64,000 bases of DNA from Marsupella aquatica. Its lineage: Eukaryota; Plantae; Marchantiophyta. The stretch's first letter is position 1. Every line of letters begins with the position of its first letter. Location: the NCBI GenBank assembly GCA_973895155.1, contig OZ316891.1, forward strand, positions 21,837,168 through 21,901,167, read 5' to 3'. Shown one piece after another: positions 4,784 to 60,140 of this stretch. The notes below the pieces were generated by a model. That model made no database searches and was not told the DNA's origin. It saw nothing but the letters and a program-made list of their open reading frames with translations. The position numbers and the translations under genes are program-made.

Positions 4784-4939
4784 CCTACTGGACCACAAAA
4801 ACATGTCATCTATGGTCACCCCGTATAACACAATGCAACCACAATCACCAGGCATCCATCCATACATCTGTGTTGCTTCAGAATTACTTTATTACACATC
4901 CTTCCCCTCACTAATGTCTATGCAAACAATTCACATTAC

Positions 4940-11250: not shown

Positions 11251-11261
11251 GCCTGCGCATG

Positions 11262-28740: not shown

Positions 28741-28752
28741 GCAAATATGTAG

Positions 28753-29049: not shown

Positions 29050-29062
29050 ATATGTAGTAGTG

Positions 29063-30199: not shown

Positions 30200-32195
30200 T
30201 GCCACAAGTTCTATCCACTTGGAGAAATGCTCTATCATGATCATGATGTAGAGATTACCCCGAGATGTGAGGGGCAATTCTCCAGCCAAATCACATGAGC
30301 AACGATGAAACATGCCTTGAATAGGGAATGGATGAAGTGTGGGTTGCTGAGATGTGAAAAAAGTCCTCACCTATCACACTATTCACACCAGGCAATAACA
30401 TCCCAAACCTGGCCATGCATGCCCCTCCAATGATAATGGGGAACCAAGAGGCTGTAAGTCCTCTTAATGCCAAAATGACCAAGCTTAGAATGTACCTTAC
30501 GGATAGGGCTAACCCTCTCATGAATGGGTGGAACCACCACTTCCCTGTCTGGCAAGCAGCGCACAAGATGATCTCCCTTCCACAAGTAGCGCTTGGACCT
30601 CTATTGAATTTGGTCTCTCTGGGCTGCAGTGACATGTGTGGGGTATTCTCCATGCTGTAGAAATCTCAGAGTATTGTTGTCCTCCCATATGTCCACCACA
30701 GGTTGGTCAACAACGTAGCATGGCAGCAAAGCAAGATAGGTAGATGCATGAAATGCAGGTAGGATGGAAACCTGGTCAAAATCCTGTCGTGCATCTGAGG
30801 AATCATCAGAGGTAATCAAAGGGGTGCAGAACATAGTGTCAGCATTCTGATGTGTCACACCAGGCCTATGAATTACCTCAAAGTCATACTCCTAGAGTAT
30901 GAGTGTCCAACAAGCAAGCTTGCCAGTAAGCTTTCGTTAGTCATCAACCACTTCAAGGGCTGGTGGTTGGTGTAGAGAGTAAATCTGGTCCCATAGAGGT
31001 AGGGCCTGTAATGTATGACAGCCCACACAACAGCAAGGCATTCACCCTCATAAGAAGAATAATGACTCTTTGCCTGATTGTTGCTCTTGGATGCATAGGC
31101 AATGACGTACTCTTTACCTTCCTCATCATGATGGCCCAAAATGGCACCAATCTCAAGGGCACTCCAATCTGTGTGTAGCACAAAGACCTTGCTAAAATCA
31201 GGTCTTCTCAACACCGGGTATTCTGAGAGCTTCTCCTTCAAAGTGGCAAATGCTGCCTCAGCATCTGTACTCCATGTCCAAGTCACATTCTTTTTCAACA
31301 AAGAGTACAATGGGTGTGCAATGGTACTGAAATCTTTGATGTAGATCCGGTAGTAATTGCACAACCCAATAAAGCTCCTAAAAGTGTGAACATCAGTAGG
31401 AGTGGGCATTTCCAAGATGGATACTACCTTGCCCAATGAGCCATGGTTCCATTTGGAATAATGCGATGCCCAAGGTATATTATTGATCTGACAGCAAATT
31501 CACACTTCTTGGGGTGTATCTTTAGGTTCACCTTCTTAAGCCTCAAGAATAGCTCCTCAAGGTCAAGTAGATGCTGGTCAAATCCTTTGCTGTGGACCAA
31601 CACATCATCAATGTAGCATTTTAGAAACTCAGCACCTTGAAGAACCTGGTCCATGACTCTTTGAAAGAATATGGGCGCATTCTTCAAGCCAAATGGCATC
31701 ACCAACCACTCCCATACTTAGTTGGTTACTACCATGGAAATTTTTTTTCTTGCGGTCCTTTGCAAGCAGCAAAATCTGGTTAAAGCCTTGCCTTAGATCC
31801 ACAAGAGTAAAGATGTCTGAGTCTCCAATGCTGTCAAATAGCTCCTCTGGCCGTGGCATGGGATACCTGTCCTGGGGTGTGACCAGGTTCAGTGGCCTAT
31901 AGTCCCCACACATGCGCTTCTCTGTCCACAATCCACTGAAATCCTTCTTTGTTGGCATCACTGTAGCTGCTACAAAATCTGATGTAGATGGCTCAATAAG
32001 ACCAGCTTCATAGAGCTCTTGGCACCTCTCATCCACCAGCTGCCACTCATGCTTACTCAAACGGTGTCTCCGCTTGAAGATAGGTGTTTCATCAGCCAAC
32101 TCAATGGGGAACTGCATAGTCTTGCACTTACCCAAGTCCTTCATAGAGAAAGCAAACACATTCTCATGCTTGAGGAGCAAATTCAGCAGCTGGTC
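30200..32195 (-). pseudogene. Ty3/Gypsy RT-RNase H-integrase N-terminus (mirror copy)
   Basis: RMCGDYRPLN, MPFGLKNAP, CYIDDV, LHTDWS, EGECLAVVWA, HSKLGHFG; several stops and frameshifts. Confidence 0.93.
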
Positions 32196-32594
32196 CTTCT
32201 ATCTTTTACTTAGGTGGTTGCCCATGATGAATGTGTAGTTGGAAACACTAGGAATAGGACCTGATGTACTCGGGTGCTTGAAGAGCCAAAAGTGCCAGCC
32301 TCTCCATTGTCCAAGCTGCTAGCATGGTGCTGATAAGGTGATGAGGCCTCTCCAAGGCCTGTTGTACCTGCTGATCTGGGTTGGTCCACACCATGAAACT
32401 CAGAAATATTGTCAGCCATGTTACAAGGGACCTCCTCCCCCCCGATAGTTGGACTGAAGTGGTGAGTGTTGAATAGAGGTACGTGCACCTGGTCTGGATG
32501 CCATGTAGCAGCTCCATGGAGTGGTAGGGCTGGAACTCCTGATGTTGGATGAATGTACATCTGAAAAAGGATGCAAGTGACCAGAAGCCAAGTG

Positions 32595-33517
32595 AGAGCA
32601 TTGAGATCCATTACCCTGCCAAGTAAAGCATTCCTGGCCAGCCTGGTGATTTGGGTGTGGCCTGTAGGACCGGATTGGAAGCCCATAGCCCGTTCTCTCT
32701 CCTCAGGACTAGGTTCATCCCATGTACTGGTAGAATGTCGATAAACCAGGCCAGGACCATCACCCTGAAAAGCATGGGCACCTGGAAAGGACACAAATGT
32801 AGGCCAAGCAGCACGGGGCTCTCCAATGGTATTGGCTGGATACCAAGGGGCTGGCTCCTGTCGTGTAGCTGGTTGGCAAGAACTGGCAGTATCCAAAATC
32901 TGGTCCACTGTGAGGTTAGTGTCCTTGGATGTGTGGTGAAGAGCTAACTCCAGCAAGGAAGGTGGTGCAAGGTTAGTCCAAAAGTTACAAAGATGATGTG
33001 CATAAGAACCATAGTGCACTGCATCAATGAGAAGGGGTGGTCCCAAGTAGTGTTGGACCATACTGAAATCCTCTTTGACCTGTGGATGTTGGTCAAACTG
33101 AGATGGAGTATTCTCAATGATGTAACCAACAACAGGGTAGAGGGCCTGAGCCCAGGTAAGAACCTGAACCAATGCTGTGAAAAGGCCAGAACAAGAATCA
33201 ATGTGCAATCCAACATCGTGACCAGCAGCTGAAAATCCTTGGCATTCCCAACCAGCTATGATCAAATCAAGGGAGCCAAGAAGGGTTAAGTGTCGGTGCT
33301 GGATATCTAGAGGGAAGAAAGAAAAGGCAAACTTCCATGCACTGTGTGGAAATTGCTGGGGAAATCGCTTTGAAAATTCCAGCAGACAGGATTCAGCCAC
33401 TTGTCTTGCACTTGGATCAATATCCACGTAGATGTACTACCTCACCACCATGCCAGATTGTAGGAGAGATTCTAGGCCTGTAGAAATGCCACCAAAAAGT
33501 TCAAGCAATGTAAGGCC
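32595..33517 (-). pseudogene. C5 DNA cytosine-methyltransferase domain within Gypsy pol (mirror copy)
   Basis: Same motifs as 53338-54260. Confidence 0.87.
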
Positions 33518-33894
33518 ATCTGGAGGAGGAGTCCATGTAACTGGTGCGCTCAAGATTGGGGCTATTGGCTGTCCATTGTGCTGCCCAAGGTCTTCAAACT
33601 TGCACAATGCAGCCACCAAAGGTCCATGGGCTACTTGAAGTCGTTGTACCACCTCTGGTTGATGATCCACGTTGCTAGAAAGTGCTGCTATATGTGCAGC
33701 AGCATGTGTAGTAGCCACCTCATCGTCATCCTTCTCAATCCAATCGTGCAATGGGTGGTTGACATAGGTAGTTGTGTGCACTTCTTTCAACACACAGTGG
33801 TGAGCCATAGGTGTATGGGCACCATGCAAATCAAGTGGAATGTAGCCCAAGTGTGAGCCATCAGTATGCCAATCAACTATGTAGTATGCATGCT

Positions 33895-34235
33895 CATGCC
33901 AGTTGTCAATGGTAAAACCTGGTGGGAACAAAGCCTCTTGGCCAATGAGCACATCATATGTCGTGGCATTGGTAACCAAACATCTGAGTGGGAAATGCAA
34001 TTCCTGATCTATACCTCCATTAAAAGTGAGAGTGAGTAAAATTGAACTCTCACCCAACACATCCTCCACAGTGCCATTAGCAATCCAAATGTGCCACCTG
34101 GATTGCTATAAATGATCAGTCAGGAGTCTCATCTTCTTGGCAAACTGAATGCCCAAGATCATTGGTTGAGCGCCTGTGCCTAGCATGACCACCTAAGGAG
34201 TGTGACCCTCCAACTTGACCACTGAATTCTTGTTG
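33895..34235 (-). pseudogene. Retrotransposon aspartic protease (mirror copy)
   Basis: VMLGTGAQPMI...YDVLIGQEAL, with stops. Confidence 0.75.
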
Positions 34236-34472
34236 TCAACAATGGCAATGGTGGTGGAAACTGAAGTCCTATCACTAGGCACCACTCTCGGCAAATGATG
34301 AGGTACCTTGTGAAGGGAGTTAGTGTCCACGGTCTTTCCACTCAACAACATAGCCCAGAAAGATGGAGCAGCATGACCAGAATTAAGTGTAGCTCTGGTC
34401 ACACAATCAGCAGCAATCGGTAAAAGGGAAGCCAAACCAGTGGAAACATGTAATGGAGAAGAAGAAGGTCCA

Positions 34473-37121
34473 TGTCACCTGCTTATCAAACGATTTACAC
34501 GACAAATACGTGTTTCCTCCTACTAAAATTGTTTGTTATCGTATGACGGGAACGTGGAGGGACGCTATTAGGATTCTATTGCATGTAGGATGAGTATGTT
34601 TGATTCCGCTCCCGGAAGTGTAATTTTTGATCAAGTCTACCGACTAGCCCCTCTGCTTTTGATCAAGTCCCATGGACTACGCCACACACACACTCCTACT
34701 GGTCGCTGGTGGAGTGCTGTCACCACCCCCCCTACTCACACAGTCGACCAATCCGTGCAAGTATTCCTTAGACACTTCTTGGGAAAGAACACAATCGTGA
34801 GCCGAAAAAGATAACGCCACACCAAAATTTGAGGAATCAAACCAAATCCATATCTTTTGGCAAAAAATGGTAACACATTGCAAGGACAACCCAGCCTCCT
34901 GCCGTCTGCCCAACTCCTGCCTCGCTGGGGCAAGCGCTACACCTCTACCTCACTAGTCTGGCTTGAATTGCCCTTCTGGCTATGAGCTAACTTCCCTAAT
35001 ACCAACACTAGACTGAGTTCCCCCCCTCACTACTACGGGGCTCTCCCCCTAAATACTCAAAACAACACACCAAAGCACCCCTCACGGGGTCACAAGGATG
35101 GCGGCTACCCTAGCGGCACCGCTAAAACCTTCACAAAAGAAATCCCTAATCCTAAAGCATGCGACACACACATGCTCCTCAAACCCTAATCTAACAATGG
35201 GACTGACGATGCCTTCGATGGCGCCCCAACATTGCTCCGTGAACCGCGAAAATGCAAGGGACCCCACAATTGCCGAAACTAGGTGCCACTCTGAGTGCAC
35301 CTCTGAGCTCACCTCTGGGTAGCCCTACTCCTCCTGATCATGAATCACAAAACCGCTCTTGAAACGGACGTCGAACGACCAAGTTATGGCCGTTTCAGTA
35401 TCACTTACTCACCAACTTCGTCGGGCTCTAATTTACTCATCCTGGCTCCGTTTGAGGAGCGCCGCTTCTTGTTGAAATCAGCTCCGCGAGCTCCTTCCAA
35501 CAAGCCCGTGAGTGCACCCTTCCAAAAAGTTTCAAAATCCAGAGGTCGTATGACAAGTCCGTACGGCTACCCTAGTCCTCCTCCTCCTCACTCACGGTGC
35601 CATGGCTTGAGCCCCGTGAGTCGGTCTCTCATCACTCCTCCTCCTCACTCACGGTGCCCTGGCTTGAGCCCCGTGAGTTGGTCTCCTCATCGCTCCTCCT
35701 CCTTCTTACTCATGGTGCCCTGGCTTGAGCCCCTTGAGTTGGTCTCCTCATCGCTCTCCATTGGAGTGGATACCACTCCGCTAAACAAGGATTCACTTGA
35801 GTCCACCACCTCCTATCCTATCTATCTACCCTGCCTACCCACCTCAATCCTCTTGATCGCCACCACCGGTCTGTTGTAAAAGGAGGGGGCCCCTATAATT
35901 GTCGAAACTAAAATTTTATCAGAATTCACTTCTGAAAACATATTTGAGGAGCCCTTCTCTTCTTGATCATGGCTCCGTAAACGGTGCACAAAACGGAGGT
36001 CAAACGGCCAAGATATGGTCGTTTAAGTTTTCAGGGGACCGTCTCCCTCCGTTTCGTCCGTACAACACCAAGGGGCCCCAGCTTTGCAAAACACGGATCA
36101 CGGGTTCCCCGTATGTGTTGCTACCTCCTCCTTCCAAAGCCGGGACTTCCTGCCATACGGACGTCCGTACGGCCTCAAAATCCCCGTATTCTCAAAAATC
36201 GCGATTTGTTGTATCTCCCTCGTCTTAGCTCCGTTTTGGCCGTGTGACACATCGTTGGATTCAGCTCAACGAGCTCTTTCCAGCAAGCCCGTAGACTCCT
36301 GATTTTGAGATGGTCGAAAATCTGATGTTTGTACAACTAGGGTCCGTACACACGGTGGAAGCAAGCACAAGAGGGAAAGGGTTTAGGGTTTAGGTATGGG
36401 TAGAAACCCCACAAGTGAGAATAAAGAAAAAGGGAAGGAAGAAAGTGTGAGGGCCCATTCTACGGATGTGTTCTTCTACGGAGTGCCCCTTTACGGAGTG
36501 GGGAAGGGAAAGAGAGCAAAAACCATGTGAGAACCACACAAAGGGTGAAGGGGAACACAAGTGTGGGAACCCCTCCCTTCTAAGGGCCCTCCCACCATCA
36601 CTACTCCAAGATTGCTTAGTTTGTCGTTTTACGGGCATTGAGGTCCCTCAAGATGTCACTGTTTGATATGAACCTAAAATCAACTAGAGAACCTCAGTTT
36701 CGCATGGGGCTCATTGAGGGCTTCAAAATGAATCCAAACATGACCATGTTTGGAATAGTACTAGCGCAGCAACGTCTGTTTTAAGTTTCAATGTTTTCTA
36801 TATTTTGGTCATTCTTCCCATTTTGCGTCAAACGTGGAGCCTCCGACCAGCCCCCACCCCTCCAAGATGCCCACACCTTGGCTCCAAGTCCTTGGACTGC
36901 CTTGTGGCCTCCTTGTACCCCCTCAATGGTTCCCTTGTCATCCATCACCGCCCTACACCCCTCTCAACTCCGGCCTCCAGTTGTCGCATCCATTTATTAG
37001 AACTAACAAAAATAAAAAATTTGAAAATCCAACCACTTTTACTACACCTACTTATCTTTCTACCTATATACGCTATTATAAGTCATCACTGAGTTACTAT
37101 CGGGTTTGGGGCCCTGTCACA
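34473..37121. mobile_element. 2649-bp solo-LTR-like insertion (mirror of 49734-52382)
   Basis: TG...CA termini, 5-bp TSD GTCCA, no recognisable protein; internal repeats of about 57-60 bp at 35575-35760. Confidence 0.85.
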
Positions 37122-37306
37122 GTCCAGTATGTTCATGAGATTGGACCTCCAAAACCGGTGTCACAGGGGCTGATGAAGAATGTAGTGAACCCTCTAGCGC
37201 TTTGATGAGAGCTCTAGCATCCAATTGTAAATCATGGCAACTAAAAAGTGTTGTAAGAATCCTTTGTGCCATACCAGAGGTGAAATGCTCAAGCAGCTCA
37301 AGAGAA

Positions 37307-38137
37307 ACGAGTTATGGTCCGATCCGGGTTTGGCCGATTGGGGGTCCCAAGCGACGATACCAGCACCCACGTCCAGAACAGCTCCTTCCTTGGGCGCAGC
37401 CCAGGTTTCCCCTCGTACCTATCAATCACCAACTGAACGTGTAGCTTGTGCTAAAGCTTGTCCCAACACGTCGGGACCATAATGGCCCCAACTATAGCAG
37501 CCAACTCCTGTTTCTTGCCCCACTGATGGTCTAGGGGCCAAGTGCACTTGGAACTCAACCTCCATGCCTACTTGGTCTTGCCTCCCCAACGCAAGCTCCC
37601 TTGAGAGACTGAATGCGACTTGGTTGCTATTTCAGCAGGATTTTGCAAGCGGGCAAGAGAGCCCCTGCAAACCCCAAGAACCTATGGCACCCTCAAACCC
37701 AGATGAGCTCAAGAGGACATAACCCTTCTTGAGAGATTTCCAATGCACCCAAGAAGTCCCCCAACGGACTTCTCGTTGGGAAGTTATTGTCATTTTCGTT
37801 TGGCATTACCCCTTAGTGTTGCGATCGTTGTGGCTCACGACTTTGGCTTGCCCTTTAGCCCCCAAGGAGACATTACTCCCCTCATATATGCTTCTGGAGA
37901 TCTGCCACCCTAGACCAACTTTGGTCCCCAAATTTTGGCCCCCCACCTGGACCCCAACCCGCATGTCTGGGCGCGTCACAAACCTGGCAATGCCCATAAC
38001 TTTCTAGTTAGGTGTCCGCAAGCAGAGTGCCTTAGCCTGTTGCAATTGGGCAAACCCAGTGCTCATGCCTAGGCCCTTACATCCCATCGTCGCTTGGGAC
38101 CCCCAATCGGCCAAACCCGGATCGGACCATAACTCGT
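37307..38137. repeat. Perfect 52-bp inverted repeat (37307-37358 / 38086-38137) at the inner junction of the large duplication
   Basis: ACGAGTTATGGTCCGATCCGGGTTTGGCCGATTGGGGGTCCCAAGCGACGAT and its exact reverse complement. Confidence 0.92.
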
Positions 38138-45103: not shown

Positions 45104-45829
45104 TGTCATGCCGAGGGACAATGCCTCTTATGCACATCGGCATGTCCCTCGCATGCCCGCTAGGTATGTAGTTAGGGCTAGTGTACTACTTGAGTTAGCA
45201 ACATGTTCTTGTAGCAAGCTAGTCTGGGCCGTTCTTGAAGCAAACATGCTTGTTAGTGAGACACCAGGACTTTGCTTACTTAGGGCATGCCTTTCTTTGT
45301 TAGTTTTCACTTCTTCTTGAATCTCTGTTGATAGAGCTCAGACAGTGCTCGTCGGTTTGGTACATGGGATTCACGAAGTGATTCATTAGATGTTCCCAAT
45401 CGATCTTGGCATCTCGCCGGTTTTCGATTCAATTTCAGTACGCTTGTTTATCTTACGCCTTTTATTCAAGAAGAACTGTCAAGATAGCAGTGCCCTAGGG
45501 AATCACTCGTTGGATTATTAGAACGGGGTGCGAACAAATGAAGGTTCTTTTTAATCTTGTTGGTGTAATAATTATAATCAAAAATTTGTAATAAAGGCGT
45601 TTAAAAATCCAATTTTGGTAAAAATATTAGTTTTTATATTCAGCAAGGTATTTAAAAATTTGTCAAAGCCATATAATCAAGGGTACAAGGGTATTTTTAA
45701 TTGAATTTATTTTTTAATTTATTTTTTCAAATTTCATTAGTTTGTTCTCACGTGTTTTAGGGGTTTTACTCTAAGTGATTCCCCAGGGTAGTGGTGAGGG
45801 GAAGAAGATTGCTTGTGACAATTTTGACA
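45104..45829 (+). mobile_element. Candidate 5' LTR of the methyltransferase-bearing Gypsy element
   Basis: TGTCA...TGACA termini followed by TTTTTGGTGAAGCC (PBS-like TGG at 45835), upstream of the leader and gag. No second LTR is in the window to confirm it. Confidence 0.45.
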
Positions 45830-47549: not shown

Positions 47550-49733
47550 ACAACATGGCCGTCAGCCACTCATCTGGCCGCATTGAGCGCTTTAGCAAGC
47601 GGCCAGACTGTTTCTTTGCGTGAGTTCAAATCCACTTTCTACACTGTCATTTACAAATTGGAGTTGATGTATGGCAGCAATTTCACAAATGCATTTGTAT
47701 TTAAGCAACTAGCCAGGTATGTGCACCATGAGGCTTTGGATGTGTATGAGTAGCACTCTCAACGGCTGCTTGCTGTCACACAATTGCCTAACCTTGCCTA
47801 TGCCAGTGCAATTGCGGTAGCCTCACAATTGGCCTTATAGAATGCCATTGCAGCCCATGCTGCTGCTCTTGCCACTTCCCCTCCTACTCTAGTTCCTACC
47901 ATTGCGCCAGTTACTCCCACTGTGAGTCTTGGCACAGGCTACATCGGGCATTTCTCCCACCATTGATTCCCATGCCTTTGCTGATCCAATGGCTGAGTTT
48001 TTCCAGGTTCTTGAATTAGAATTCCCAATCAAGAGTGCTGACAAAATCATGCAGTTGGCCACCTTTGTGAGGCAGCGCGCTGAAACACTGAAGATGATGT
48101 ATTGTCGGCTTCTCAAGCTGAAAGAGGACACCCAGAGCATCACTGACCTAGAGGCTCGGGGGTCTCACTATATGGGGACCTCCCCATTGCCTGCAACGTT
48201 TTTAGGCCTCGGACCCCCTAAAATGTAAGAAAAAAAATTTATTTTTTAACCCCTATAAAGTTGGAATATTCTTGGAATATTCTAAAATTTGGATTAAAAA
48301 GACCCTTATATTCTTATAAGTCTCAAAATTGAATTTAAAAGACCCTATTGTTCTTCTACAAAAATTCTTAAGTCTTCCCTTAGAACCAATAAAATGACCC
48401 TATCCTTCGTCGCACGTGATATGCCATTTTTGTGGAAGTGAGACCCCCGAGCCTAGAGGCTGCTCATTGCTATCTTCATGCATCGGAGGGCACACCAGCT
48501 CTCCATTCGCAAGTGTTGCAGCAAGAATTCTCAGAGTTTGGAGATAGCTACACATTTCTCAATATCTATGAAACTGCTGAGAAACTTGAGTTGGCCCATG
48601 CACATTATGAGGCCAGTATTGCGTGTCCATCGTGATCCAGGTATCAGGCTGTTGCCTCCACACTGGCCACTCCTTCCAGTGTACCACAATATGGTCCAAT
48701 ACCAAGCAAGCACATGCTGCTTTCATGCTGCCATCGTGCAACTATTGTGGTAACCCTAATCACAAGGCTAATGAATGTGATATTATTGCTGAGGACCTAT
48801 CTTGTGATTTTTGTGGGAAAATGGGCCATTTGGAGGCAATTTGTTTTGCCAAATTCCTAGAGAGGAAGCAGCTACGACAACAGGCCCCTCATCCTGCTCC
48901 TGCTTCCACTCCCCCACCAGCTAGGAGGGCTCCTATTGCCTCAGTTGCTCCTCCTTCCAGTGGCAAAGCACCCGGTGCCAACAAATCGCCCAAGCAGCAA
49001 CAGAAGCAACCAGCTCAGAAGGAGGCTCACAACGCACAGGCAACTCAACTCCAATCTCTGACTCATGAGGTTAAGTCCTTACGTGCCAAACTTGCCAACA
49101 TCAAAGGCAAGTCCACTGCCTCTATTGGTCCTTCTCAACCGGCTGGTCACGTGCAACCCATCCCTGGTCCAGGCACCATTGATAGTTCAACACCTCTACC
49201 TCGCTTTTTCTATGGCTTGCCATTTGATGCTCATATGGGTGAGCATGTGTTGTCCTCTGCTACACAGCTTGGCCTTACAGCAAAATTTTCAGATTCATTC
49301 TGCCCATCCTATTTTGCTTACCAGCACGCTAGTACTGCCTCTCGTACTGCTCCCACACGCCGCATTGTACAGGCTGATGGTGTTGCTGCCGGTCCTATGA
49401 CTAGAGCTAAGGATGCTTGAGCTGTCATGCCCTAATCTTTTTAGCCACTCATGCTTGCTAAAGAGCGCATCTTGTTGGCGAGGGGGGAGGGAGCTGCAGC
49501 TACATCCATTCCACCACCAGGTGTTGCTGACATTTCACAGGGAGTTGTTTCTCTTGAGCTGCTTGAGCATTTCACCTCTGGTATGGCACAAAGGATTCTT
49601 ACAACACTTTTTAGTTGCCATGATTTACAATTGGATGCTAGAGCTCTCATCAAAGCGCTAGAGGGTTCACTACATTCTTCATCAGCCCCTGTGACACCGG
49701 TTTTGGAGGTCCAATCTCATGAACATACTGGAC
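47550..49733 (+). pseudogene. Gypsy gag with two CCHC zinc knuckles, interrupted by MITE copy 2
   Basis: DPMAEFFQVLELEF...FVRQRAETLKMMYCRL; CNYCGNPNHKANEC and CDFCGKMGHLEAIC (about 48737-48844); stops present. Confidence 0.8.
48155..48451. mobile_element. 297-bp MITE, copy 2
   Basis: Perfect 15-bp TIR CTCGGGGGTCTCACT/AGTGAGACCCCCGAG; 8-bp TSD CCTAGAGG (48147-48154, 48452-48459). Confidence 0.96.
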
Positions 49734-52382
49734 TGTGACAGGGCCCCAAACCCGATAGTAACTCAGTGATGACTTATAATAGCGTATATAGGTAGAAAGA
49801 TAAGTAGGTGTAGTAAAAGTGGTTGGATTTTCAAATTTTTTATTTTTGTTAGTTCTAATAAATGGATGCGACAACTGGAGGCCGGAGTTGAGAGGGGTGT
49901 AGGGCGGTGATGGATGACAAGGGAACCATTGAGGGGGTACAAGGAGGCCACAAGGCAGTCCAAGGACTTGGAGCCAAGGTGTGGGCATCTTGGAGGGGTG
50001 GGGGCTGGTCGGAGGCTCCACGTTTGACGCAAAATGGGAAGAATGACCAAAATATAGAAAACATTGAAACTTAAAACAGACGTTGCTGCGCTAGTACTAT
50101 TCCAAACATGGTCATGTTTGGATTCATTTTGAAGCCCTCAATGAGCCCCATGCGAAACTGAGGTTCTCTAGTTGATTTTAGGTTCATATCAAACAGTGAC
50201 ATCTTGAGGGACCTCAATGCCCGTAAAACGACAAACTAAGCAATCTTGGAGTAGTGATGGTGGGAGGGCCCTTAGAAGGGAGGGGTTCCCACACTTGTGT
50301 TCCCCTTCACCCTTTGTGTGGTTCTCACATGGTTTTTGCTCTCTTTCCCTTCCCCACTCCGTAGAGGGGCACTCCGTAGAAGAACACATCCGTAGAATGG
50401 GCCCTCACACTTTCTTCCTTCCCTTTTTCTTTATTCTCACTTGTGGGGTTTCTACCCATACCTAAACCCTAAACCCTTTCCCTCTTGTGCTTGCTTCCAC
50501 CGTGTGTACGGACCCTAGTTGTACAAACATCAGATTTTCGACCATCTCAAAATCAGGAGTCTACGGGCTTGTTGGAAAGAGCTCGTTGAGCTGAATCCAA
50601 CGATGTGTCACACGGCCAAAACAGAGCTAAGACGAGGGAGATACAACAAATCGCGATTTTTGAGAATACGGGGATTTTGAGGCCGTACGGACGTCCGTAT
50701 GGCAGGAAGTCCCGGCTTTGGAAGGAGGAGGTAGCAACACATACGGGGAACCCGTGATCCGTGTTTTGCAAAGCTGGGGCCCCTTGGTGTTGTACGGACG
50801 AAACGGAGGGAGACGGTCCCCTGAAAACTTAAACGACCATATCTTGGCCGTTTGACCTCCGTTTTGTGCACCGTTTACGGAGCCATGATCAAGAAGAGAA
50901 GGGCTCCTCAAATATGTTTTCAGAAGTGAATTCTGATAAAATTTTAGTTTCGACAATTATAGGGGCCCCCTCCTTTTACAACGGACCGGTGGTGGCGATC
51001 AAGAGGATTGAGGTGGGTAGGCAGGGTAGATAGATAGGATAGGAGGTGGTGGACTCAAGTGAATCCTTGTTTAGCGGAGTGGTATCCACTCCAATGGAGA
51101 GCGATGAGGAGACCAACTCAAGGGGCTCAAGCCAGGGCACCGTGAGTAAGGAGGAGGAGGAGCGATGAGGAGACCAACTCACGGGGCTCAAGCCAGGGCA
51201 CCGTGAGTGAGGAGGAGGAGTGATGAGAGACCGACTCACGGGGCTCAAGCCATGGCACCGTGAGTGAGGAGGAGGAGGACTAGGGTAGCCGTACGGACTT
51301 GTCATACGACCTCTGGATTTTGAAACTTTTTGGAAGGGTGCACTCACGGGCTTGTTGGAAGGAGCTCGCGGAGCTGATTTCAACAAGAAGCGGCGCTCCT
51401 CAAACGGAGCCAGGATGAGTAAATTAGAGCCCGACGAAGTTGGTGAGTAAGTGATACTGAAACGGCCATAACTTGGTCGTTCGACGTCCGTTTCAAGAGC
51501 GGTTTTGTGATTCATGATCAGGAGGAGTAGGGCTACCCAGAGGTGAGCTCAGAGGTGCACTCAGAGTGGCACCTAGTTTCGGCAATTGTGGGGTCCCTTG
51601 CATTTTCGCGGTTCACGGAGCAATGTTGGGGCGCCATCGAAGGCATCGTCAGTCCCATTGTTAGATTAGGGTTTGAGGAGCATGTGTGTGTCGCATGCTT
51701 TAGGATTAGGGATTTCTTTTGTGAAGGTTTTAGCGGTGCCGCTAGGGTAGCCGCCATCCTTGTGACCCCGTGAGGGGTGCTTTGGTGTGTTGTTTTGAGT
51801 ATTTAGGGGGAGAGCCCCGTAGTAGTGAGGGGGGGAACTCAGTCTAGTGTTGGTATTAGGGAAGTTAGCTCATAGCCAGAAGGGCAATTCAAGCCAGACT
51901 AGTGAGGTAGAGGTGTAGCGCTTGCCCCAGCGAGGCAGGAGTTGGGCAGACGGCAGGAGGCTGGGTTGTCCTTGCAATGTGTTACCATTTTTTGCCAAAA
52001 GATATGGATTTGGTTTGATTCCTCAAATTTTGGTGTGGCGTTATCTTTTTCGGCTCACGATTGTGTTCTTTCCCAAGAAGTGTCTAAGGAATACTTGCAC
52101 GGATTGGTCGACTGTGTGAGTAGGGGGGGTGGTGACAGCACTCCACCAGCGACCAGTAGGAGTGTGTGTGTGGCGTAGTCCATGGGACTTGATCAAAAGC
52201 AGAGGGGCTAGTCGGTAGACTTGATCAAAAATTACACTTCTGGGAGCGGAATCAAACATACTCATCCTACATGCAATAGAATCCTAATAGCGTCCCTCCA
52301 CGTTCCCGTCATACGATAACAAACAATTTTAGTAGGAGGAAACACGTATTTGTCGTGTAAATCGTTTGATAAGCAGGTGACA
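49734..52382. mobile_element. 2649-bp solo-LTR-like insertion between gag and protease
   Basis: TGTGAC...GTGACA termini; 5-bp TSD TGGAC (49729-49733, 52383-52387); removing it restores the frame HEHTG-PSSSPLH. Confidence 0.87.
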
Positions 52383-52619
52383 TGGACCTTCTTCTTCTCC
52401 ATTACATGTTTCCACTAGTTTGGCTGCCCTTTTACCGATTGCTGCTGATTGTGTGACCAGAGCTACACTTAATTCTGGTCATGCTGCTCCATCTTTCTGG
52501 GCTATGTTGTTGAGTGGAAAGACCGTGGACACTAACTCCCTTCACAAGGTACCTCATCATTTGCCGAGAGTGGTGCCTAGTGATAGGACTTCAGTTTCCA
52601 CCACCATTGCCATTGTTGA

Positions 52620-52960
52620 CAACAAGAATTCAGTGGTCAAGTTGGAGGGTCACACTCCTCAGGTGGTCATGCTAGGCACAGGCGCTCAACCAATGATCTT
52701 GGGCATTCAGTTTGCCAAGAAGATGAGACTCCTGACTGATCATTTATAGCAATCTAGGTGGCACATTCGGACTGCTAATGGCACTGTGGAGGATGTGTTG
52801 GGTGAGAGTTCAATTTTACTCACTCTCACTTTTAATGGAGGTATAGATCAGGAATTGCATTTCCCACTCAGATGTTTGGTTACCAATGCCACGACATATG
52901 ATGTGCTCATTGGCCAAGAGGCTTTGTTCCCACCAGGTTTTACCATTGACAACTGGCATG
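52620..52960 (+). pseudogene. Retrotransposon aspartic protease (catalytic D replaced by G)
   Basis: VMLGTGAQPMI (consensus LDTGA), IRTANG flap, YDVLIGQEAL; stop at 52747-52749. Confidence 0.78.
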
Positions 52961-53337
52961 AGCATGCATACTACATAGTTGATTGGCATACTGATGGCTC
53001 ACACTTGGGCTACATTCCACTTGATTTGCATGGTGCCCATACACCTATGGCTCACCACTGTGTGTTGAAAGAAGTGCACACAACTACCTATGTCAACCAC
53101 CCATTGCACGATTGGATTGAGAAGGATGACGATGAGGTGGCTACTACACATGCTGCTGCACATATAGCAGCACTTTCTAGCAACGTGGATCATCAACCAG
53201 AGGTGGTACAACGACTTCAAGTAGCCCATGGACCTTTGGTGGCTGCATTGTGCAAGTTTGAAGACCTTGGGCAGCACAATGGACAGCCAATAGCCCCAAT
53301 CTTGAGCGCACCAGTTACATGGACTCCTCCTCCAGAT

Positions 53338-54260
53338 GGCCTTACATTGCTTGAACTTTTTGGTGGCATTTCTACAGGCCTAGAATCTCTCCTACAATCT
53401 GGCATGGTGGTGAGGTAGTACATCTACGTGGATATTGATCCAAGTGCAAGACAAGTGGCTGAATCCTGTCTGCTGGAATTTTCAAAGCGATTTCCCCAGC
53501 AATTTCCACACAGTGCATGGAAGTTTGCCTTTTCTTTCTTCCCTCTAGATATCCAGCACCGACACTTAACCCTTCTTGGCTCCCTTGATTTGATCATAGC
53601 TGGTTGGGAATGCCAAGGATTTTCAGCTGCTGGTCACGATGTTGGATTGCACATTGATTCTTGTTCTGGCCTTTTCACAGCATTGGTTCAGGTTCTTACC
53701 TGGGCTCAGGCCCTCTACCCTGTTGTTGGTTACATCATTGAGAATACTCCATCTCAGTTTGACCAACATCCACAGGTCAAAGAGGATTTCAGTATGGTCC
53801 AACACTACTTGGGACCACCCCTTCTCATTGATGCAGTGCACTATGGTTCTTATGCACATCATCTTTGTAACTTTTGGACTAACCTTGCACCACCTTCCTT
53901 GCTGGAGTTAGCTCTTCACCACACATCCAAGGACACTAACCTCACAGTGGACCAGATTTTGGATACTGCCAGTTCTTGCCAACCAGCTACACGACAGGAG
54001 CCAGCCCCTTGGTATCCAGCCAATACCATTGGAGAGCCCCGTGCTGCTTGGCCTACATTTGTGTCCTTTCCAGGTGCCCATGCTTTTCAGGGTGATGGTC
54101 CTGGCCTGGTTTATCGACATTCTACCAGTACATGGGATGAACCTAGTCCTGAGGAGAGAGAACGGGCTATGGGCTTCCAATCCGGTCCTACAGGCCACAC
54201 CCAAATCACCAGGCTGGCCAGGAATGCTTTACTTGGCAGGGTAATGGATCTCAATGCTCT
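53338..54260 (+). pseudogene. C5 DNA cytosine-methyltransferase domain embedded in Gypsy pol between protease and RT
   Basis: Motifs in canonical order: I LELFGGISTG; II YIYVDID; III LDI; IV DLIIAGWECQGFSAAG; V SGLF; VI YIIENT; VII/VIII IDA..GSYAHHLCNFWTN; IX EERERAMGF; X RNALLGR. Same reading frame as the protease, with one TAG at 53416-53418. Confidence 0.88.
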
Positions 54261-54659
54261 CACTTGGCTTCTGGTCACTTGCATCCTTTTTCAGATGTAC
54301 ATTCATCCAACATCAGGAGTTCCAGCCCTACCACTCCATGGAGCTGCTACATGGCATCCAGACCAGGTGCACGTACCTCTATTCAACACTCACCACTTCA
54401 GTCCAACTATCGGGGGGGAGGAGGTCCCTTGTAACATGGCTGACAATATTTCTGAGTTTCATGGTGTGGACCAACCCAGATCAGCAGGTACAACAGGCCT
54501 TGGAGAGGCCTCATCACCTTATCAGCACCATGCTAGCAGCTTGGACAATGGAGAGGCTGGCACTTTTGGCTCTTCAAGCACCCGAGTACATCAGGTCCTA
54601 TTCCTAGTGTTTCCAACTACACATTCATCATGGGCAACCACCTAAGTAAAAGATAGAAG

Positions 54660-56655
54660 GACCAGCTGCTGAATTTGCTCCTCAAGCATGAGAATGTGTT
54701 TGCTTTCTCTATGAAGGACTTGGGTAAGTGCAAGACTATGCAGTTCCCCATTGAGTTGGCTGATGAAACACCTATCTTCAAGCGGAGACACCGTTTGAGT
54801 AAGCATGAGTGGCAGCTGGTGGATGAGAGGTGCCAAGAGCTCTATGAAGCTGGTCTTATTGAGCCATCTACATCAGATTTTGTAGCAGCTACAGTGATGC
54901 CAACAAAGAAGGATTTCAGTGGATTGTGGACAGAGAAGCGCATGTGTGGGGACTATAGGCCACTGAACCTGGTCACACCCCAGGACAGGTATCCCATGCC
55001 ACGGCCAGAGGAGCTATTTGACAGCATTGGAGACTCAGACATCTTTACTCTTGTGGATCTAAGGCAAGGCTTTAACCAGATTTTGCTGCTTGCAAAGGAC
55101 CGCAAGAAAAAAAATTTCCATGGTAGTAACCAACTAAGTATGGGAGTGGTTGGTGATGCCATTTGGCTTGAAGAATGCGCCCATATTCTTTCAAAGAGTC
55201 ATGGACCAGGTTCTTCAAGGTGCTGAGTTTCTAAAATGCTACATTGATGATGTGTTGGTCCACAGCAAAGGATTTGACCAGCATCTACTTGACCTTGAGG
55301 AGCTATTCTTGAGGCTTAAGAAGGTGAACCTAAAGATACACCCCAAGAAGTGTGAATTTGCTGTCAGATCAATAATATACCTTGGGCATCGCATTATTCC
55401 AAATGGAACCATGGCTCACTGGGCAAGGTAGTATCCATCTTGGAAATGCCCACTCCTACTGATGTTCACACTTTTAGGAGCTTTATTGGGTTGTGCAATT
55501 ACTACCGGATCTACATCAAAGATTTCAGTACCATTGCACACCCATTGTACTCTTTGTTGAAAAAGAATGTGACTTGGACATGGAGTACAGATGTTGAGGC
55601 AGCATTTGCCACTTTGAAGGAGAAGCTCTCAGAATACCCGGTGTTGAGAAGACCTGATTTTAGCAAGGTCTTTGTGCTACACACAGATTGGAGTGCCCTT
55701 GAGATTGGTGCCATTTTGGGCCATCATGATGAGGAAGGTAAAGAGTACGTCATTGCCTATGCATCCAAGAGCAACAATCAGGCAAAGAGTCATTATTCTT
55801 CTTATGAGGGTGAATGCCTTGCTGTTGTGTGGGCTGTCATACATTACAGGCCCTACCTCTATGGGACCAGATTTACTCTCTACACCAACCACCAGCCCTT
55901 GAAGTGGTTGATGACTAACGAAAGCTTACTGGCAAGCTTGCTTGTTGGACACTCATACTCTAGGAGTATGACTTTGAGGTAATTCATAGGCCTGGTGTGA
56001 CACATCAGAATGCTGACACTATGTTCTGCACCCTTTTGATTACCTCTGATGATTCCTCAGATGCACGACAGGATTTTGACCAGGTTTCCATCCTACCTGC
56101 ATTTCATGCATCTACCTATCTTGCTTTGCTGCCATGCTACGTTGTTGACCAACCTGTGGTGGACATATGGGAGGACAACAATACTCTGAGATTTCTACAG
56201 CATGGAGAATACCCCACACATGTCACTGCAGCCCAGAGAGACCAAATTCAATAGAGGTCCAAGCGCTACTTGTGGAAGGGAGATCATCTTGTGCGCTGCT
56301 TGCCAGACAGGGAAGTGGTGGTTCCACCCATTCATGAGAGGGTTAGCCCTATCCGTAAGGTACATTCTAAGCTTGGTCATTTTGGCATTAAGAGGACTTA
56401 CAGCCTCTTGGTTCCCCATTATCATTGGAGAGGCATGCATGGCCAGGTTTGGGATGTTATTGCCTGGTGTGAATAGTGTGATAGGTGAGGACTTTTTTCA
56501 CATCTCAGCAACCCACACTTCATCCATTCCCTATTCAAGGCATGTTTCATCGTTGCTCATGTGATTTGGCTGGAGAATTGCCCCTCACATCTCGGGGTAA
56601 TCTCTACATCATGATCATGATAGAGCATTTCTCCAAGTGGATAGAACTTGTGGCA
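54660..56655 (+). pseudogene. Ty3/Gypsy RT, RNase H and integrase N-terminus
   Basis: RMCGDYRPLN, QDRYPMP, MPFGLKNAP, YIDD, TDWS, YEGECLAVVWA, H-x4-H...C-x2-C, IEHFSKWIEL; frameshifts and stops; cut at 56656 by an LTR. Confidence 0.94.
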
Positions 56656-57792
56656 TGTCACACCATTCTAGGTAGTGTTAGAGTGTATCGTACTATCTAG
56701 ATCCGTATATTTGGTATGTGTGCTATATGAGCCGATAAGGTTCCGTTAGGTTTGTGTGAGAGGGTACTTCTCACTTGTGAGGCATTGAAAAGTCATCTTT
56801 CAATGTTGAGCCTTGGAGAGAGAGGAGCTTGAGTGTGGCTATGGTGGCTGTGAGCTCCGCTTGTGTAACATGGATTCCTTGAGTAGTGCAAGGTGCATTG
56901 GCTTAACATACGTGTGTGATTGGATCGGTGCGGAATCGATGGGGTATTGTTGACCGGGATCGTTGTGCCGATTGTTGAGGAGATTACATTGAAAGATCAT
57001 GAGCTTCAAACTCTATTGTGCAGACAGAAGCTCAGTTTGAGTTTGTCGTTGACGGTGACGGTTCGTGGTAGCTCAAATCAATTGGATTTGTGTTTGACGC
57101 GGATTCATGTTTCTTGAATCGTTGGTTCAGATATTGTTTGAGTACACTGTTGCTATTCGATCTGGTTTTGGCCAAGCTTGAACGTTGTTGGATCTGGATC
57201 TGGTCTAGATCTGGATCTGGATTGAGTCGGAGTCTAGATCTGGAAAGAGATGGCCAAAGGTTGCTGCTTGTATTGCGCTGCTATTTTGTGGACAGGTCTG
57301 TTGGAATTTTGAGTGCTCGAAGCGTTTTATTGTCAAGGGACGCTTGCGGAATGTCCCAAAACTGTGTGCGACAGGTTTGCGGAGGTCGAGAGCCATCAAC
57401 GTTGCCATTTTTGTGAAGGAAATTGCTGCTTTTGAGTGGCAAATATTGCCATTTTTGAGCCCGACGACTTTTGTTTTGTGTACACACACAACTGTGCGCG
57501 CATAAGGCGAATCGCAAGGTCATCCATCCCAGGACTATTTCGAGTCGCAAGCGCAAGGTGAAGTGCAAGGTCACCCATCCTGGGACTATTCCGAATTGCG
57601 AGCACAAGGCGAAGCGCAAGGCCACCCATCCCGGGGCTATTCCCAGCCGCGAGCGTTTAACTGGCAAGTTCTCATCCCACCTTGTGTACACACAAGCTTT
57701 CACAACTTGTTGTTTAGATTCAAGCCCCAGGGGGCTTTATACACTTTTCGGTTTGCTTAGAGCCTTGTTTCGGGCCAAATCAGAGGCTCTTT
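56656..57792 (+). mobile_element. Partial LTR inserted into the integrase
   Basis: GTGGCA|TGTCACACC here versus the uninterrupted GTGGCATTGCCG at about 58842 in the sister copy; homologous to 60141 onward. Confidence 0.72.
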
Positions 57793-58027
57793 CACTACTA
57801 CATATTTGCCAATTTTGCGAAGGCGTTTTACAAGAGGAAGAAAGCTTTGCAAGATTAATCTCATCGCTAACCTTGCGATACGATACGTATCGCACTTAGC
57901 GAATCTACACATATCGCAACACATAATTGCGAAACTTAGACCATCGCAACATTTTACGACACTTCAGGTATCGCAAAACATTTCCGAAGCAATTACCATT
58001 GAACAAGTTAGCGATCTTTACCACTTC
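57793..58027 (-). mobile_element. 235-bp duplicated terminus of CACTA-2 with intact TIR
   Basis: CACTACTACATATTTGCC followed by TTGCGA/TCGCAA repeats. Confidence 0.9.
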
Positions 58028-58029
58028 AT

Positions 58030-59824
58030 TACATTACAGGCCCTACCTCTATGGGACCAGGTTTGTTCTCTACACCGACCACCAGCCCTTGAAGTGGTTG
58101 ATGACCAACGACAAGCTTACTGGCAAGCTTGCTCTTTGGGCACTCATACTCCAGGAGTATGATTTTGAGGTAATTCATAGGCCTGGTGTGACACATCAAA
58201 ATGCTGACACTATGTCCCACAGCCCTTTGATTGCCTCTGATGATCCCTCAGATGCACGGCAGGATTTTGACCAGGTTTCCATCCTGCCTACATTTCATGC
58301 ATCTACCTATCTTGCTTTGCTGCCATGCTACATCGTTGACCAACCTGTGGTGGACATATGGAAGGACAGCGACACTCTGAGATTTTTGCAGCATGGGGAG
58401 TACCCCACCCATGTTACTGCTGCCCAGAGAGACCGAATTCAGCAAAGGTCCAAGCGCTACTTGTGGAAGGGAGATCATCTTGTGCGCTGCTTGCCAGACA
58501 GGGAAGTGGTGGTTCCACCCATTCATGAGAGGGTTGGCCTTATCCGTAAGGTACATTTTGAGCTTGGTCATTTTGGTGTTAAGAGGACTTATAGCCTCTT
58601 GGTCCCCCATTATCATTGGAAAGGCATGCATGGCCAGGTTCGAGATGTTATTGCCCGATGTGAGCAGTGTGATAGGGTAAGGACTTCTTTCACATCTCGG
58701 CAACCCACACTTCATCCACTCCCTATTCAGGGCATGTTTTATCGTTGGTCATGTGATTTGGCTGGAGAATTACCCCTCACATCTTGGGGTAATCTCTACA
58801 TCATGATCATGATAGAGCATTTCTCCAAGTGGATAGAACTTGTGGCATTGCCGGATAAGACCTCCCGTAGCACCAGCCAGGCATTCCTAGAACAAGTTCT
58901 CAGCCGCTTTGGAGCTTGTGCAGAATGTCTCACTGACCAGGGCTCAGAGTTTAGAGGAGAGTTCCAGGAGCTGCTTGATCAGGCCCTCATTGATCATCGC
59001 TGGACATCACGAGATCACCCATAGGCAGATGGCTTGGCAGAGCGCATGGTTTAGACATGCAAGAAGGGCCTTCGGAAGATCTGCCTCACCAAAAACAAGG
59101 AGGATTGGGACCTGGCCTTACCCTACATTACCATGGGGTATAGGATGTCTAGACATGCATCACTGTCTAACTTTTCTCCCTACTTCTTGTTGTTTGGTCG
59201 TCACCCAGTTCCACCTTCTGCTATTGCTGCTCACATGCTTCAGGTGGTGGACTTGGATTCAGCTGTGACTTGGTCTGATGTGATCTCTGAGAGGGCTGCC
59301 CTATTCAGGAGGGTTATGCCCATGGCCATGGAGAATTTGGCCATTGCACAGCACAGGGACACATTGCGTTATGCACACACACGACGGGGCACTTTTCAGC
59401 CCAAGGTCAGGAAGTTTGATGTGGGAGATTTTGTGTACTTGCAGCGGCAAGCTAACGACACCCTGGACACCTCTACCAGTCGTACTATTCTCAAGGTTAA
59501 AGCTATTCGACCGTCTGGAGTGCTGACAGGTCAAAGCGGTCGAATAGCGTCTGGAGTGTTGACAATAAGCGCATAATTGTTGACAATGCCAAGAACTGCG
59601 CCCCTTGTCATCTGCCTAACCTGGATCCCACCATTGTGACTTCTACTTGGATTCCACCTGTGGACTACCCTTGCAAAGTGTGTTTGCGAATTGATGATGC
59701 TGACCAGATGTTGCTGTGTGACAATTGCAATGGAGGGTACCATCTTTTCTGCCTTTGGCCTGAACTTACTCAGGTGCCAAAAGGATTATGGTTTTGCCCT
59801 TCCTGTGCTCCACGTGCTACCTGA
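58030..59824 (+). pseudogene. Sister Gypsy copy: RNase H end, integrase and C-terminal PHD finger
   Basis: Closely similar to 55840-56655 but less decayed; HFELGHFG...CEQC, CDLAG, LTDQGSEF, DGLAER, SPYFLLFG; PHD CKVC...LLCDNC...YHLFCL...WFCPSC at about 59672-59805. Confidence 0.92.
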
Positions 59825-60140
59825 CTTTTCTTCAACCCTCCTTTTGGTTGTGGTCTGGGGGGGATACAGAGGTTTACACCTCCACTACGTACATACCACC
59901 TCATTTGCTTTTTCTTGGCACTTGTAAATGTGATGAGACTTTTTCTATGCATGTTGGTTGCTAGCAGCTTGCACATGTGCATTGCCAGTGCTTTGTATGT
60001 TTTTGATACACTATGGCTACGATACTATATGTCATGACAACATTAAAATATTGGGCTAGTTCATTTTGAAAAGATTAACCAAAGTCCAAAGGGTTGAAAG
60101 CAAAGGTCTAAAGAGGACAAATCCCAACCTAAATGTCGAT

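What the first reader, a model, noticed from the sequence alone, without database searches (positions are those of the whole stretch)
52620..56655. Ty3/Gypsy retrotransposon with a cytosine DNA methyltransferase inside pol (gag-PR-DNMT-RT-RH-IN)
Seen: C5-MTase motifs I-X in unpermuted order (unlike plant DRM), in frame with the protease and directly upstream of RT. The catalytic Cys is kept in an unusual GWECQGFS context (E where P is expected) and ENV reads ENT. Known: DNMT-bearing retrotransposons were reported in Symbiodinium and a charophyte alga (de Mendoza et al. 2018, from memory), so the architecture has precedent. Inference: a multi-copy family, probably in a land plant, whose enzyme would be packaged with RT and could methylate new cDNA. 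This copy is dead.
Basis: partly seen in the sequence, partly recalled or inferred. Interest (0 to 1): 0.88.

Follow-up and report, generated by a model that had tools for sequence, protein, structure and literature searches.

The report
Bryophyte retrotransposon carrying DNMT3-like methyltransferase
This is a dead copy of a jumping gene, likely from a moss or liverwort, whose replication protein contains a DNMT3-like DNA-methylating domain that likely marks its own new DNA copies; the design was known from one alga, but relatives turn up in mosses, a liverwort and several green algae.

Summary
Real, but with precedent. A C5 cytosine methyltransferase domain (53323-54309) sits between protease and RT of a decayed Ty3/Gypsy element; profile and fold searches rank DNMT3 first. 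The element belongs with KnitGypsy-Dnmt3 (de Mendoza 2018): 34% identity to a Klebsormidium nitens protein with the same protease-DNMT order, and the same A-coding-B-A-B end repeats. Named relatives occur in Calypogeia, Sphagnum, Closterium and Scenedesmus; in most sampled relatives the domain lies between RNase H and integrase instead. GWECQ is not decay: E-C is the commonest motif IV in the family (87 of 170), and the domain is under purifying selection. This copy is dead (stops, frameshifts, both motif-VIII arginines lost, integrase cut). Added here: a C-terminal PHD finger, 4-bp target duplications, TG..CA ends that meet inside the repeat, and a covarying 5'-end/primer-site pairing that points to Tf1-like self-priming. 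Enzyme activity is untested, and CpG content shows no self-methylation signature. This scan already reported the family and its repeat layout on other DNA.

The parts
45104..45465 (+). 5' terminal repeat A (starts TGTCATG); contains a later ~300-bp insertion just downstream in the leader (45485-45793)
   Evidence: Aligns to repeat A of L001, score 99 vs shuffled 60+-8, max 82 of 200; its end is joined to the start of B in contigs of four runs
45309..45322 (+). Likely 5' end of the transcript; 5' arm of the self-priming helix
   Evidence: 13 of 14 bases complementary to 45464-45477; helix present in MFE and centroid fold, though whole-fragment z is only -0.65
45464..45477 (+). Primer-binding-site position; complementary to the element's own 5' arm, no tRNA-type TGG
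47555..49733 (+). gag, decayed, with CCHC zinc knuckle near 48734-48781
   Evidence: tblastn to Calypogeia P0217, 45-72% identity in pieces; Pfam zf-CCHC E 1e-4
48154..48451 (.). 298-bp MITE inserted in gag (8-bp target duplication read from the sequence; second copy at 28752-29049)
   Evidence: family D3; contigs of three runs skip it
49734..52382 (.). 2.6-kb non-coding TG..CA insertion with a 5-bp target duplication, splitting gag
   Evidence: Contigs of all four runs join 49728 to 52383; ends read
52633..53025 (+). Aspartic protease, catalytic aspartate lost, one stop
53323..54309 (+). DNMT3-like C5 cytosine methyltransferase domain, motifs I-X unpermuted; one stop, both motif-VIII arginines lost
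54591..55892 (+). Reverse transcriptase (YIDD kept) and RNase H, with frameshifts
   Evidence: Pfam RVT_1 E 2e-21, RT_RNaseH_2 E 3e-31
55893..56655 (+). Connection region and integrase N-terminus, cut at 56655
56656..57793 (+). Terminal-repeat piece of a related element that interrupts integrase
   Evidence: 69-70% alike to the repeat at 60141
58030..59824 (+). Sister copy (92% identical over 819 bp): RNase H end, integrase, PHD finger (59672-59806)
   Evidence: Pfam rve E 2e-14, Integrase_H2C2 E 2e-13, PHD E 4e-12
59852..59863 (+). Polypurine tract (G run) directly before repeat B
   Evidence: Same position in the 21 loci tabulated
59864..60039 (+). 3' terminal repeat B, ending in CA
   Evidence: Aligns to L001 PPT+B, score 81 vs 47+-6; contig cover steps up at 59864 and ends at 60039 with mixed flanks
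29050..37308 (-). Inverted duplicate of 49547-57805, including a second copy of the methyltransferase (about 32546-33532)
   Evidence: 28 differences in 8259 bp

Best explanation
This is a dead copy of a green-plant Ty3/Gypsy retrotransposon of the KnitGypsy-Dnmt3 kind (gag-PR-DNMT-RT-RH-IN-PHD, end repeats A-coding-B-A-B), whose DNMT3-like domain likely methylated the element's own cDNA in working ancestors. Shown: domain order, DNMT3-type fold, purifying selection, repeat layout, 4-bp target duplications. Inferred cycle: (1) the RNA starts about 32 nt below a TATA box in A, and its first 12-14 bases pair with the primer site and self-prime, as in Tf1/sushi; (2) reverse transcription gives B-A-internal-B-A, so the true LTR is B+A and its outer ends lack TG..CA; (3) integrase instead uses the CA-nn-TG site inside the left LTR, and the outer ends are ligated before or after insertion, which yields A-internal-B-A-B; (4) the methyltransferase, made in the same polyprotein and so likely packaged with RT and integrase, methylates the cDNA, probably at CG, so that a new copy enters pre-marked like host DNA; (5) the PHD finger likely tethers integration to H3 tails unmethylated at K4.
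For: Order GAG-PR-DNMT-RT-RH-IN-PHD wherever covered in 80 of 80 metagenome loci, the best 80 of 560 related matches. Uninterrupted natural polyproteins exist (P0217 Calypogeia gag-PR-DNMT-RT 1549 aa; P0464 PR-DNMT-RT-IN-PHD 2358 aa). DNMT3A E 8e-18 against DRM 4e-11, HhaI 4e-6, DNMT1 2.4. DNMT pS 0.77 vs pN 0.19 for window/L001; dS 0.96, dN 0.097 for L015/L001. 31 of 81 copies keep all seven catalytic residues checked. All 35 DNMT-bearing RT-RH sequences form one clade against 17 outgroups (FastTree 100); all 17 of the 120 listed RT hits at 47% identity or more carry the domain. Target duplication of 4 bp exact at 8 of 12 independent sites, one mismatch at 3, none at 1. B|A junction has a 2-nt spacer in 21 of 21 rows, while A|B is exact in 14, differs by one base in 1, lacks 2 nt in 3, has a long deletion in 1 and is not comparable in 2. 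Self-pairing of 12 or more of 14 bases in 25 of 33 5' repeats, against 1 of 33 for the best control stretch; L001 fold z -4.6; window and L001 differ at two paired positions on both arms. Related SymbioDIRS-Dnmt3 enzymes methylate CG in yeast (PMC5890265).
Against: No activity shown for any member; KnitGypsy-Dnmt3 gave none in yeast. Motif IV has E where active enzymes have P; in fission yeast Pmt1 a P-to-S change goes with no DNA activity though tRNA activity remains (PMC3526270 passages). CpG observed/expected in the six JGI copies measured and L015 is 0.36-0.43, no lower than the window's CACTA elements (0.32-0.37), and between-copy C-to-T rates are equal at CG and CHG (0.235, 0.249), which host silencing explains. 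A plain circle model predicts A-B-A-coding-B as well, and none was seen at 33 5' ends. The 80 loci come from few metagenomes and several are the same site, so counts are not independent. No transcript start was mapped. The window's own fold is not more stable than shuffles.
Confidence: 0.62

Rival explanations
1. The domain is kept for a job other than methylating cDNA: it binds or flips DNA without transfer, methylates the element's RNA, or acts on host chromatin at the insertion site together with the PHD finger.
For: P replaced by E in 87 of 170 family proteins and V of ENV often by T or A; no yeast activity for the Klebsormidium enzyme; no extra CpG loss; Pmt1 precedent of a changed motif IV with RNA-only activity.
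Against: SAM-binding motif I, catalytic Cys, EN and RxR are all kept across deep branches, E and P alternate repeatedly on the tree, and the fold is closer to DNMT3 than DNMT2 (Z 20.3 vs 17.9).
Confidence: 0.25
2. The methyltransferase works with the integrase like a restriction-modification pair: every inserted copy keeps an intact CA-nn-TG site inside (B1|A2), and methylation of this CpG-rich site shields it, or tells the two sites of a cDNA apart.
For: The 50 bp before the B|A junction hold the most CpG of 26 bins (3.1 per 50 bp; most bins near 1, next 2.2; 21 rows). The same A-coding-B-A-B layout goes with a methyltransferase in unrelated SymbioDIRS-Dnmt3. Foamy-virus integrase cleaves palindromic LTR-LTR junctions (PMC1180852 abstract).
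Against: One family, non-independent copies; CpG-rich ends may reflect the promoter; host MET1/CMT would methylate the site anyway; DIRS elements without DNMT share the layout (one search says DIRS lacking DNMT coexist).
Confidence: 0.1
3. A host DNMT3 gene fragment captured once at this locus, or an assembly chimera.
For: The locus is a nest of insertions and an inverted duplication.
Against: Same position in 80 of 80 loci, 494 clusters at E<1e-30, named relatives in five green lineages, no introns, purifying selection.
Confidence: 0.01

Closest known systems
KnitGypsy-Dnmt3 of Klebsormidium nitens (de Mendoza et al. 2018, PMC5890265; read parts 1-4 of 7 and searched passages; main supplementary PDF not readable)
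   Same: Gypsy Pol with an unpermuted DNMT3-like domain; repeat layout the paper calls DIRS-like (A-coding-B-A-B); purifying selection; K. nitens GAQ93235.1 has protease then DNMT and is 34% identical, E 2e-47
   Different: Land-plant host; motif IV GWECQ and VI ENT against GFPCQ and ENV in the K. nitens protein; the paper's main text does not mention a PHD finger (0 hits) and the parts read give no priming or integration mechanism
SymbioDIRS-Dnmt3 (same paper)
   Same: DNMT3 in Pol, A-coding-B-A-B repeats; shown to methylate CG de novo in yeast
   Different: Tyrosine recombinase rather than DDE integrase; dinoflagellate; here insertions have 4-bp target duplications
Mammalian DNMT3A/3B and bryophyte host DNMT3 (Yaari 2019, PMC6453930, passages)
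   Same: Fold and motif order
   Different: About 20-24% identity; no PWWP/ADD or DUF3444; embedded in Pol
Self-priming Tf1/sushi and plant Tcn1 chromoviruses (Neumann 2019, PMC6317226, passages)
   Same: Primer site complementary to the element's own 5' RNA end rather than a tRNA
   Different: Those carry chromodomains and ordinary LTR pairs; this lineage has a PHD finger and groups apart from the chromodomain-bearing outgroups used (no named Tcn1 sequence was in the tree)
EpiLTRs and DAM-LTRs (bioRxiv 10.64898/2026.05.21.726589, passages)
   Same: LTR retrotransposons carrying a DNA methyltransferase plus a chromatin reader
   Different: DNMT4-like enzyme at the end of pol with DAM and chromodomain; the authors call these distinct from streptophyte Gypsy-DNMT3

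Membership tests
KnitGypsy-Dnmt3 (Gypsy-DNMT3) | Gypsy Pol domain set with DDE integrase after RT-RH | tested here: met
KnitGypsy-Dnmt3 (Gypsy-DNMT3) | Intronless, unpermuted DNMT3-related domain inside the Pol reading frame | tested here: met
   open in P0217, P0002, P0464
KnitGypsy-Dnmt3 (Gypsy-DNMT3) | Repeat layout A-coding-B-A-B | tested here: met
   Complete in 9 loci; A|B and B|A junctions in contigs of the window's own family. The window shows A and B on two different copies
KnitGypsy-Dnmt3 (Gypsy-DNMT3) | Homology to the K. nitens protein | tested here: met
   34% over 333 columns, E 2e-47; same PR-DNMT clade, FastTree 97. That GAQ93235.1 is one of the paper's copies is my inference from organism and domain order
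KnitGypsy-Dnmt3 (Gypsy-DNMT3) | [quoted passage not shown] | tested here: met
   0.07-0.11 between lineages; 0.37 among decayed sister copies, like RT 0.38
Active C5 DNA methyltransferase (DNMT3 type) | Motif I, catalytic Cys, EN of motif VI, RxR of motif VIII in this copy | tested here: not met
   Both motif-VIII arginines lost and a stop after motif I; these arginines are essential in Dnmt3a (PMC4802922 abstract)
Active C5 DNA methyltransferase (DNMT3 type) | Same residues in relatives | tested here: met
   31 of 81 copies keep all seven checked; kept in long open frames
Active C5 DNA methyltransferase (DNMT3 type) | Proline before the catalytic cysteine | tested here: not met
   E-C in at least 74 of 81 close copies; E-C 87, P-C 55, other 8, unread 20 of 170 family proteins
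Active C5 DNA methyltransferase (DNMT3 type) | Methyl transfer to DNA | not testable with these tools
   Needs an assay
Plant DRM | Permuted motif order and UBA domains | tested here: not met
   Order is I-X; DRM structures match only profile positions 78-209
DIRS/Ngaro tyrosine-recombinase elements | Tyrosine recombinase, no DDE integrase | tested here: not met
   rve and H2C2 integrase domains, TG..CA ends with 4-bp target duplications
Self-priming LTR retrotransposons (Tf1/sushi mechanism) | Primer site complementary to the first bases of the RNA | tested here: inconclusive
   Pairing, position and compensatory changes fit; the RNA 5' end was not mapped

The most novel reading that the evidence does not exclude
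One ancient Gypsy lineage spanning chlorophytes, charophytes and bryophytes replicates by self-priming and integrates through an attachment site inside its LTR rather than at the cDNA ends, and it keeps an active DNMT3 with a glutamate-cysteine active site plus an H3K4me0-type PHD reader because methylation controls or shields that internal site. It would be a retroelement with its own writer-reader pair and a restriction-modification-like logic, overlooked because paired-LTR finders miss its ends.
Probability: 0.15. Interest if true: 0.88.

Novelty: new member of a known kind. Interest (0 to 1): 0.52.

Why it matters
Transposons carrying the enzyme class that silences them are rare and unexplained. 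This family is large (494 clusters at 50% identity with E below 1e-30), has uninterrupted natural members, and reaches mosses and liverworts, where genetics and methylomes are available, so the open question from 2018 (what the DNMT does for the element) becomes testable. The E-C active site would widen what counts as a working C5 methyltransferase, and the end structure implies an integration route unlike the textbook one for DDE retrotransposons. It also warns that DNMT3 counts in green-plant genomes can include transposon copies.

Tried and rejected
No genome is held for the window, so no genome-wide copy count or search for intact copies. ESM Atlas gave no answer. IMG/VR scan: 1 weak hit of 35 stretches (28%). 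GTDB scan: 1 of 31 stretches, a 9.3-kb contig in a cyanobacterial MAG that holds the same DNMT then RT-RH-IN-PHD layout and is likely eukaryotic carry-over; no bacterial donor found. CpG-depletion test for self-methylation was negative. The RT search was crowded by chimeric pseudoscorpion gene models, and only 120 of 753 hits were listed. The careful IQ-TREE run did not finish, so trees are quick or FastTree, without host DNMT3 sequences as outgroup. Aligning six terminal repeats did not put the 3' arms in register, so covariation was read by hand, not scored. A regex count of PHD residues returned nothing. Target duplications were not examined for L037, L052, L060, whose ends matched only partly. 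The REM1 paper is not held. Rejected: DRM (order unpermuted), DIRS (DDE integrase), single-locus capture, and E-C as decay.
Full report
Observation. Window 52633-54645 (+) reads in one frame as protease then a C5 methyltransferase, broken by stops at 52747 and 53416. Motifs I, IV (GWECQGFS), VI (IENTP), VIII, IX and X are in canonical order. Alone the domain scores under Pfam's cut-off (E 0.01), but its best PDB sequence hits are DNMT3A (E 0.012), and a profile of 25 relatives gives DNMT3A 8e-18, DNMT3B 1e-14, DRM 4e-11 (partial), M.HhaI 4e-6, DNMT2 3e-4, DNMT1 2.4. The AlphaFold model (pLDDT 67, pTM 0.72) matches DNMT3B/3A in all listed Foldseek rows (best E 2e-12) and DNMT3A first among 48,161 chains (Z 20.3, rmsd 3.4, 251 aligned; DNMT2 17.9, M.HhaI 17.2). 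RT, RNase H and the integrase N-terminus follow.

The locus. The element begins at 45104 with repeat A. gag (about 47555-49733) is split by a MITE and a 2.6-kb TG..CA insertion; contigs from public runs skip both (MITE in 3 of 4 runs, the long insert in 4 of 4). Integrase is cut at 56655. A sister copy, 92% identical over 819 bp, supplies integrase, a PHD finger, the polypurine tract and repeat B (58030-60039). 49547-57805 is duplicated in inverted form at 29050-37308 with 28 differences. The copy is dead: stops, frameshifts, protease aspartate lost, and both motif-VIII arginines lost, residues essential in Dnmt3a (PMC4802922, abstract). Thousands of contigs per run lie on the stretch (8194, 18962, 10450, 651), so the family is multi-copy, though depth is no copy number. 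The host is not known; the nearest named relatives are the liverwort Calypogeia fissa (P0027, 71% over 73% of the domain) and Sphagnum, and the window groups with the Calypogeia protein, so a bryophyte is likely.

The family. The profile finds 494 clusters at E below 1e-30 among 1.84 billion representatives. Of 170 proteins examined, 98 have the domain between RNase H and integrase, 26 between protease and RT, 46 are the domain alone. Of 20 representatives looked up, five carry organism names: Klebsormidium nitens GAQ93235.1, three Closterium, and Scenedesmus (the last of the RH-DNMT-IN type). The two architectures form two clades on the DNMT tree (FastTree 97), and all 35 DNMT-bearing RT-RH sequences form one clade against 17 outgroups (100). 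These were chosen by their DNMT, so DNMT-less members of the clade are not excluded; however all 17 of 120 listed RT hits at 47% identity or more carry it. One old lineage with a relocated domain is the simplest reading; horizontal transfer was not tested.

The active site. E before the catalytic Cys is in at least 74 of 81 close copies and in 87 of 170 family proteins against 55 with P, switching repeatedly on the tree. 31 of 81 copies keep all seven catalytic residues checked. Between lineages synonymous sites are saturated while dN stays low (window/L001 pS 0.77, pN 0.19; L015/L001 dS 0.96, dN 0.097); among decayed sister copies dN/dS is 0.37, like RT at 0.38. So the domain is maintained, but activity is not shown: the Klebsormidium enzyme gave none in yeast, which the authors call inconclusive, while SymbioDIRS-Dnmt3 methylated CG (PMC5890265). 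My composition test found no self-methylation signature.

The ends. Nine loci show A-coding-B-A-B in full, the layout de Mendoza gives for KnitGypsy-Dnmt3. Elements start TGTCATG and end in CA, with a 4-bp target duplication exact at 8 of 12 independent sites, one mismatch at 3 and absent at 1. The polypurine tract precedes B, so the LTR made by reverse transcription would be B+A. The B|A junction is CA-nn-TG-like with a 2-nt spacer in 21 of 21 rows; the A|B junction varies as ligated ends would (14 exact, 1 single-base difference, 3 lacking 2 nt, 1 long deletion, 2 not comparable; some rows are the same site). In the window's own family, contigs join the end of A to 59864 in 4 of 4 runs, cover stops at 60039 with mixed flanks, and one loose end reads on into the start of A. 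No tRNA-type primer site follows A; instead 14 bases there pair with a stretch usually 32-34 nt below a TATA box (12 or more of 14 in 25 of 33; best control 1 of 33), the fold of L001 has z -4.6, and window and L001 differ at two positions on both arms. The two related repeats at 56656 and 60141 have a similar pair that also covaries. Self-priming is known for Tf1/sushi, Tcn1 and TAR (PMC6317226 passages), and integrase cleavage of a palindromic junction for foamy virus (PMC1180852 abstract). Against a plain circle model, A-B-A-coding-B was not seen at 33 5' ends; the left LTR becoming double-stranded first could explain this (inference). A-coding-B forms do not prove one-LTR circles, since L005 and L025 show both forms at one site. 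The PHD finger's best structural relatives are KDM5 PHD1, CHD4, BAZ, ATXR5, BHC80, AIRE and UHRF1; that these read H3 tails unmethylated at K4 is recalled, not tested.

Novelty. The element passes every KnitGypsy-Dnmt3 feature I could test, so it is a new member of a known kind. In the ten literature searches (listings only, apart from the papers named) I saw no report of these elements in land plants or chlorophytes, nor of their priming. But two later papers speak of 'streptophyte' retrotransposon DNMT3 (PMC12344493 and bioRxiv 10.64898/2026.05.21.726589, passages), and their supplements, and the main supplement of the 2018 paper (too large), were not seen and may list bryophyte copies or the E-C motif. 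This scan had already noted the family (e1-9798450, e1-7364826) and the permuted repeats (e1-7364823, e1-7364216) on other DNA; a word search for self-priming returned nothing. Verdict: real, well supported, precedented; interest 0.52, resting on the breadth of the lineage, the conserved E-C site and a testable replication model.

Noticed in passing
window 60141-63040 (+): A second, related element: A-like repeat from 60141 and a decayed gag most like the gag-PR-DNMT-stop subfamily (P0011, E 7e-19, 27%), interrupted before any protease. Its repeat and the piece at 56656 each hold a 10-12 bp inverted pair 179 nt apart that covaries between them.
   Followed up: partly
window 22972-27399 (+): CACTA-like transposase (Tnp2, DUF4218, DUF4216) preceded by a SET-domain ORF (PF00856, E 6e-6): another transposon next to a chromatin-writer domain.
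   Followed up: no
window 2585-11277 (-): CACTA-like element preceded by ORFs with NSD-type PHD fingers (10573-11277) and twin BRCT domains (9108-10022); cargo or a neighbouring gene not resolved.
   Followed up: no
window 28523-37308 and 49547-58027: 8.3-kb inverted duplication, 99.66% identical, bounded by a CACTA end (57794/29062) and an 831-bp element with 52-bp perfect terminal inverted repeats (37307-38137); possibly transposon-driven. Most differences are C-T transitions at CG and CHG.
   Followed up: partly
P0004, P0007, P0008, P0010, P0011; L082: A subfamily whose first reading frame ends after the methyltransferase (gag-PR-DNMT), with RT-RH-IN-PHD in a separate frame in L082; this would package the enzyme at Gag-like amounts.
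   Followed up: partly
L082 (CADCWO010000201.1): A eukaryotic-type retrotransposon contig inside a cyanobacterial MAG in GTDB, likely contamination.
   Followed up: partly
window 62432-62959 (+): Weak Methyltransf_25 hit (E 0.003, below cut-off) on a Gly/Arg-rich gag stretch; likely spurious.
   Followed up: no
L001 17229-18614: Flanking ORF reads as a plant pentatricopeptide-repeat protein (label from recall), consistent with plant host DNA in these metagenomes.
   Followed up: no
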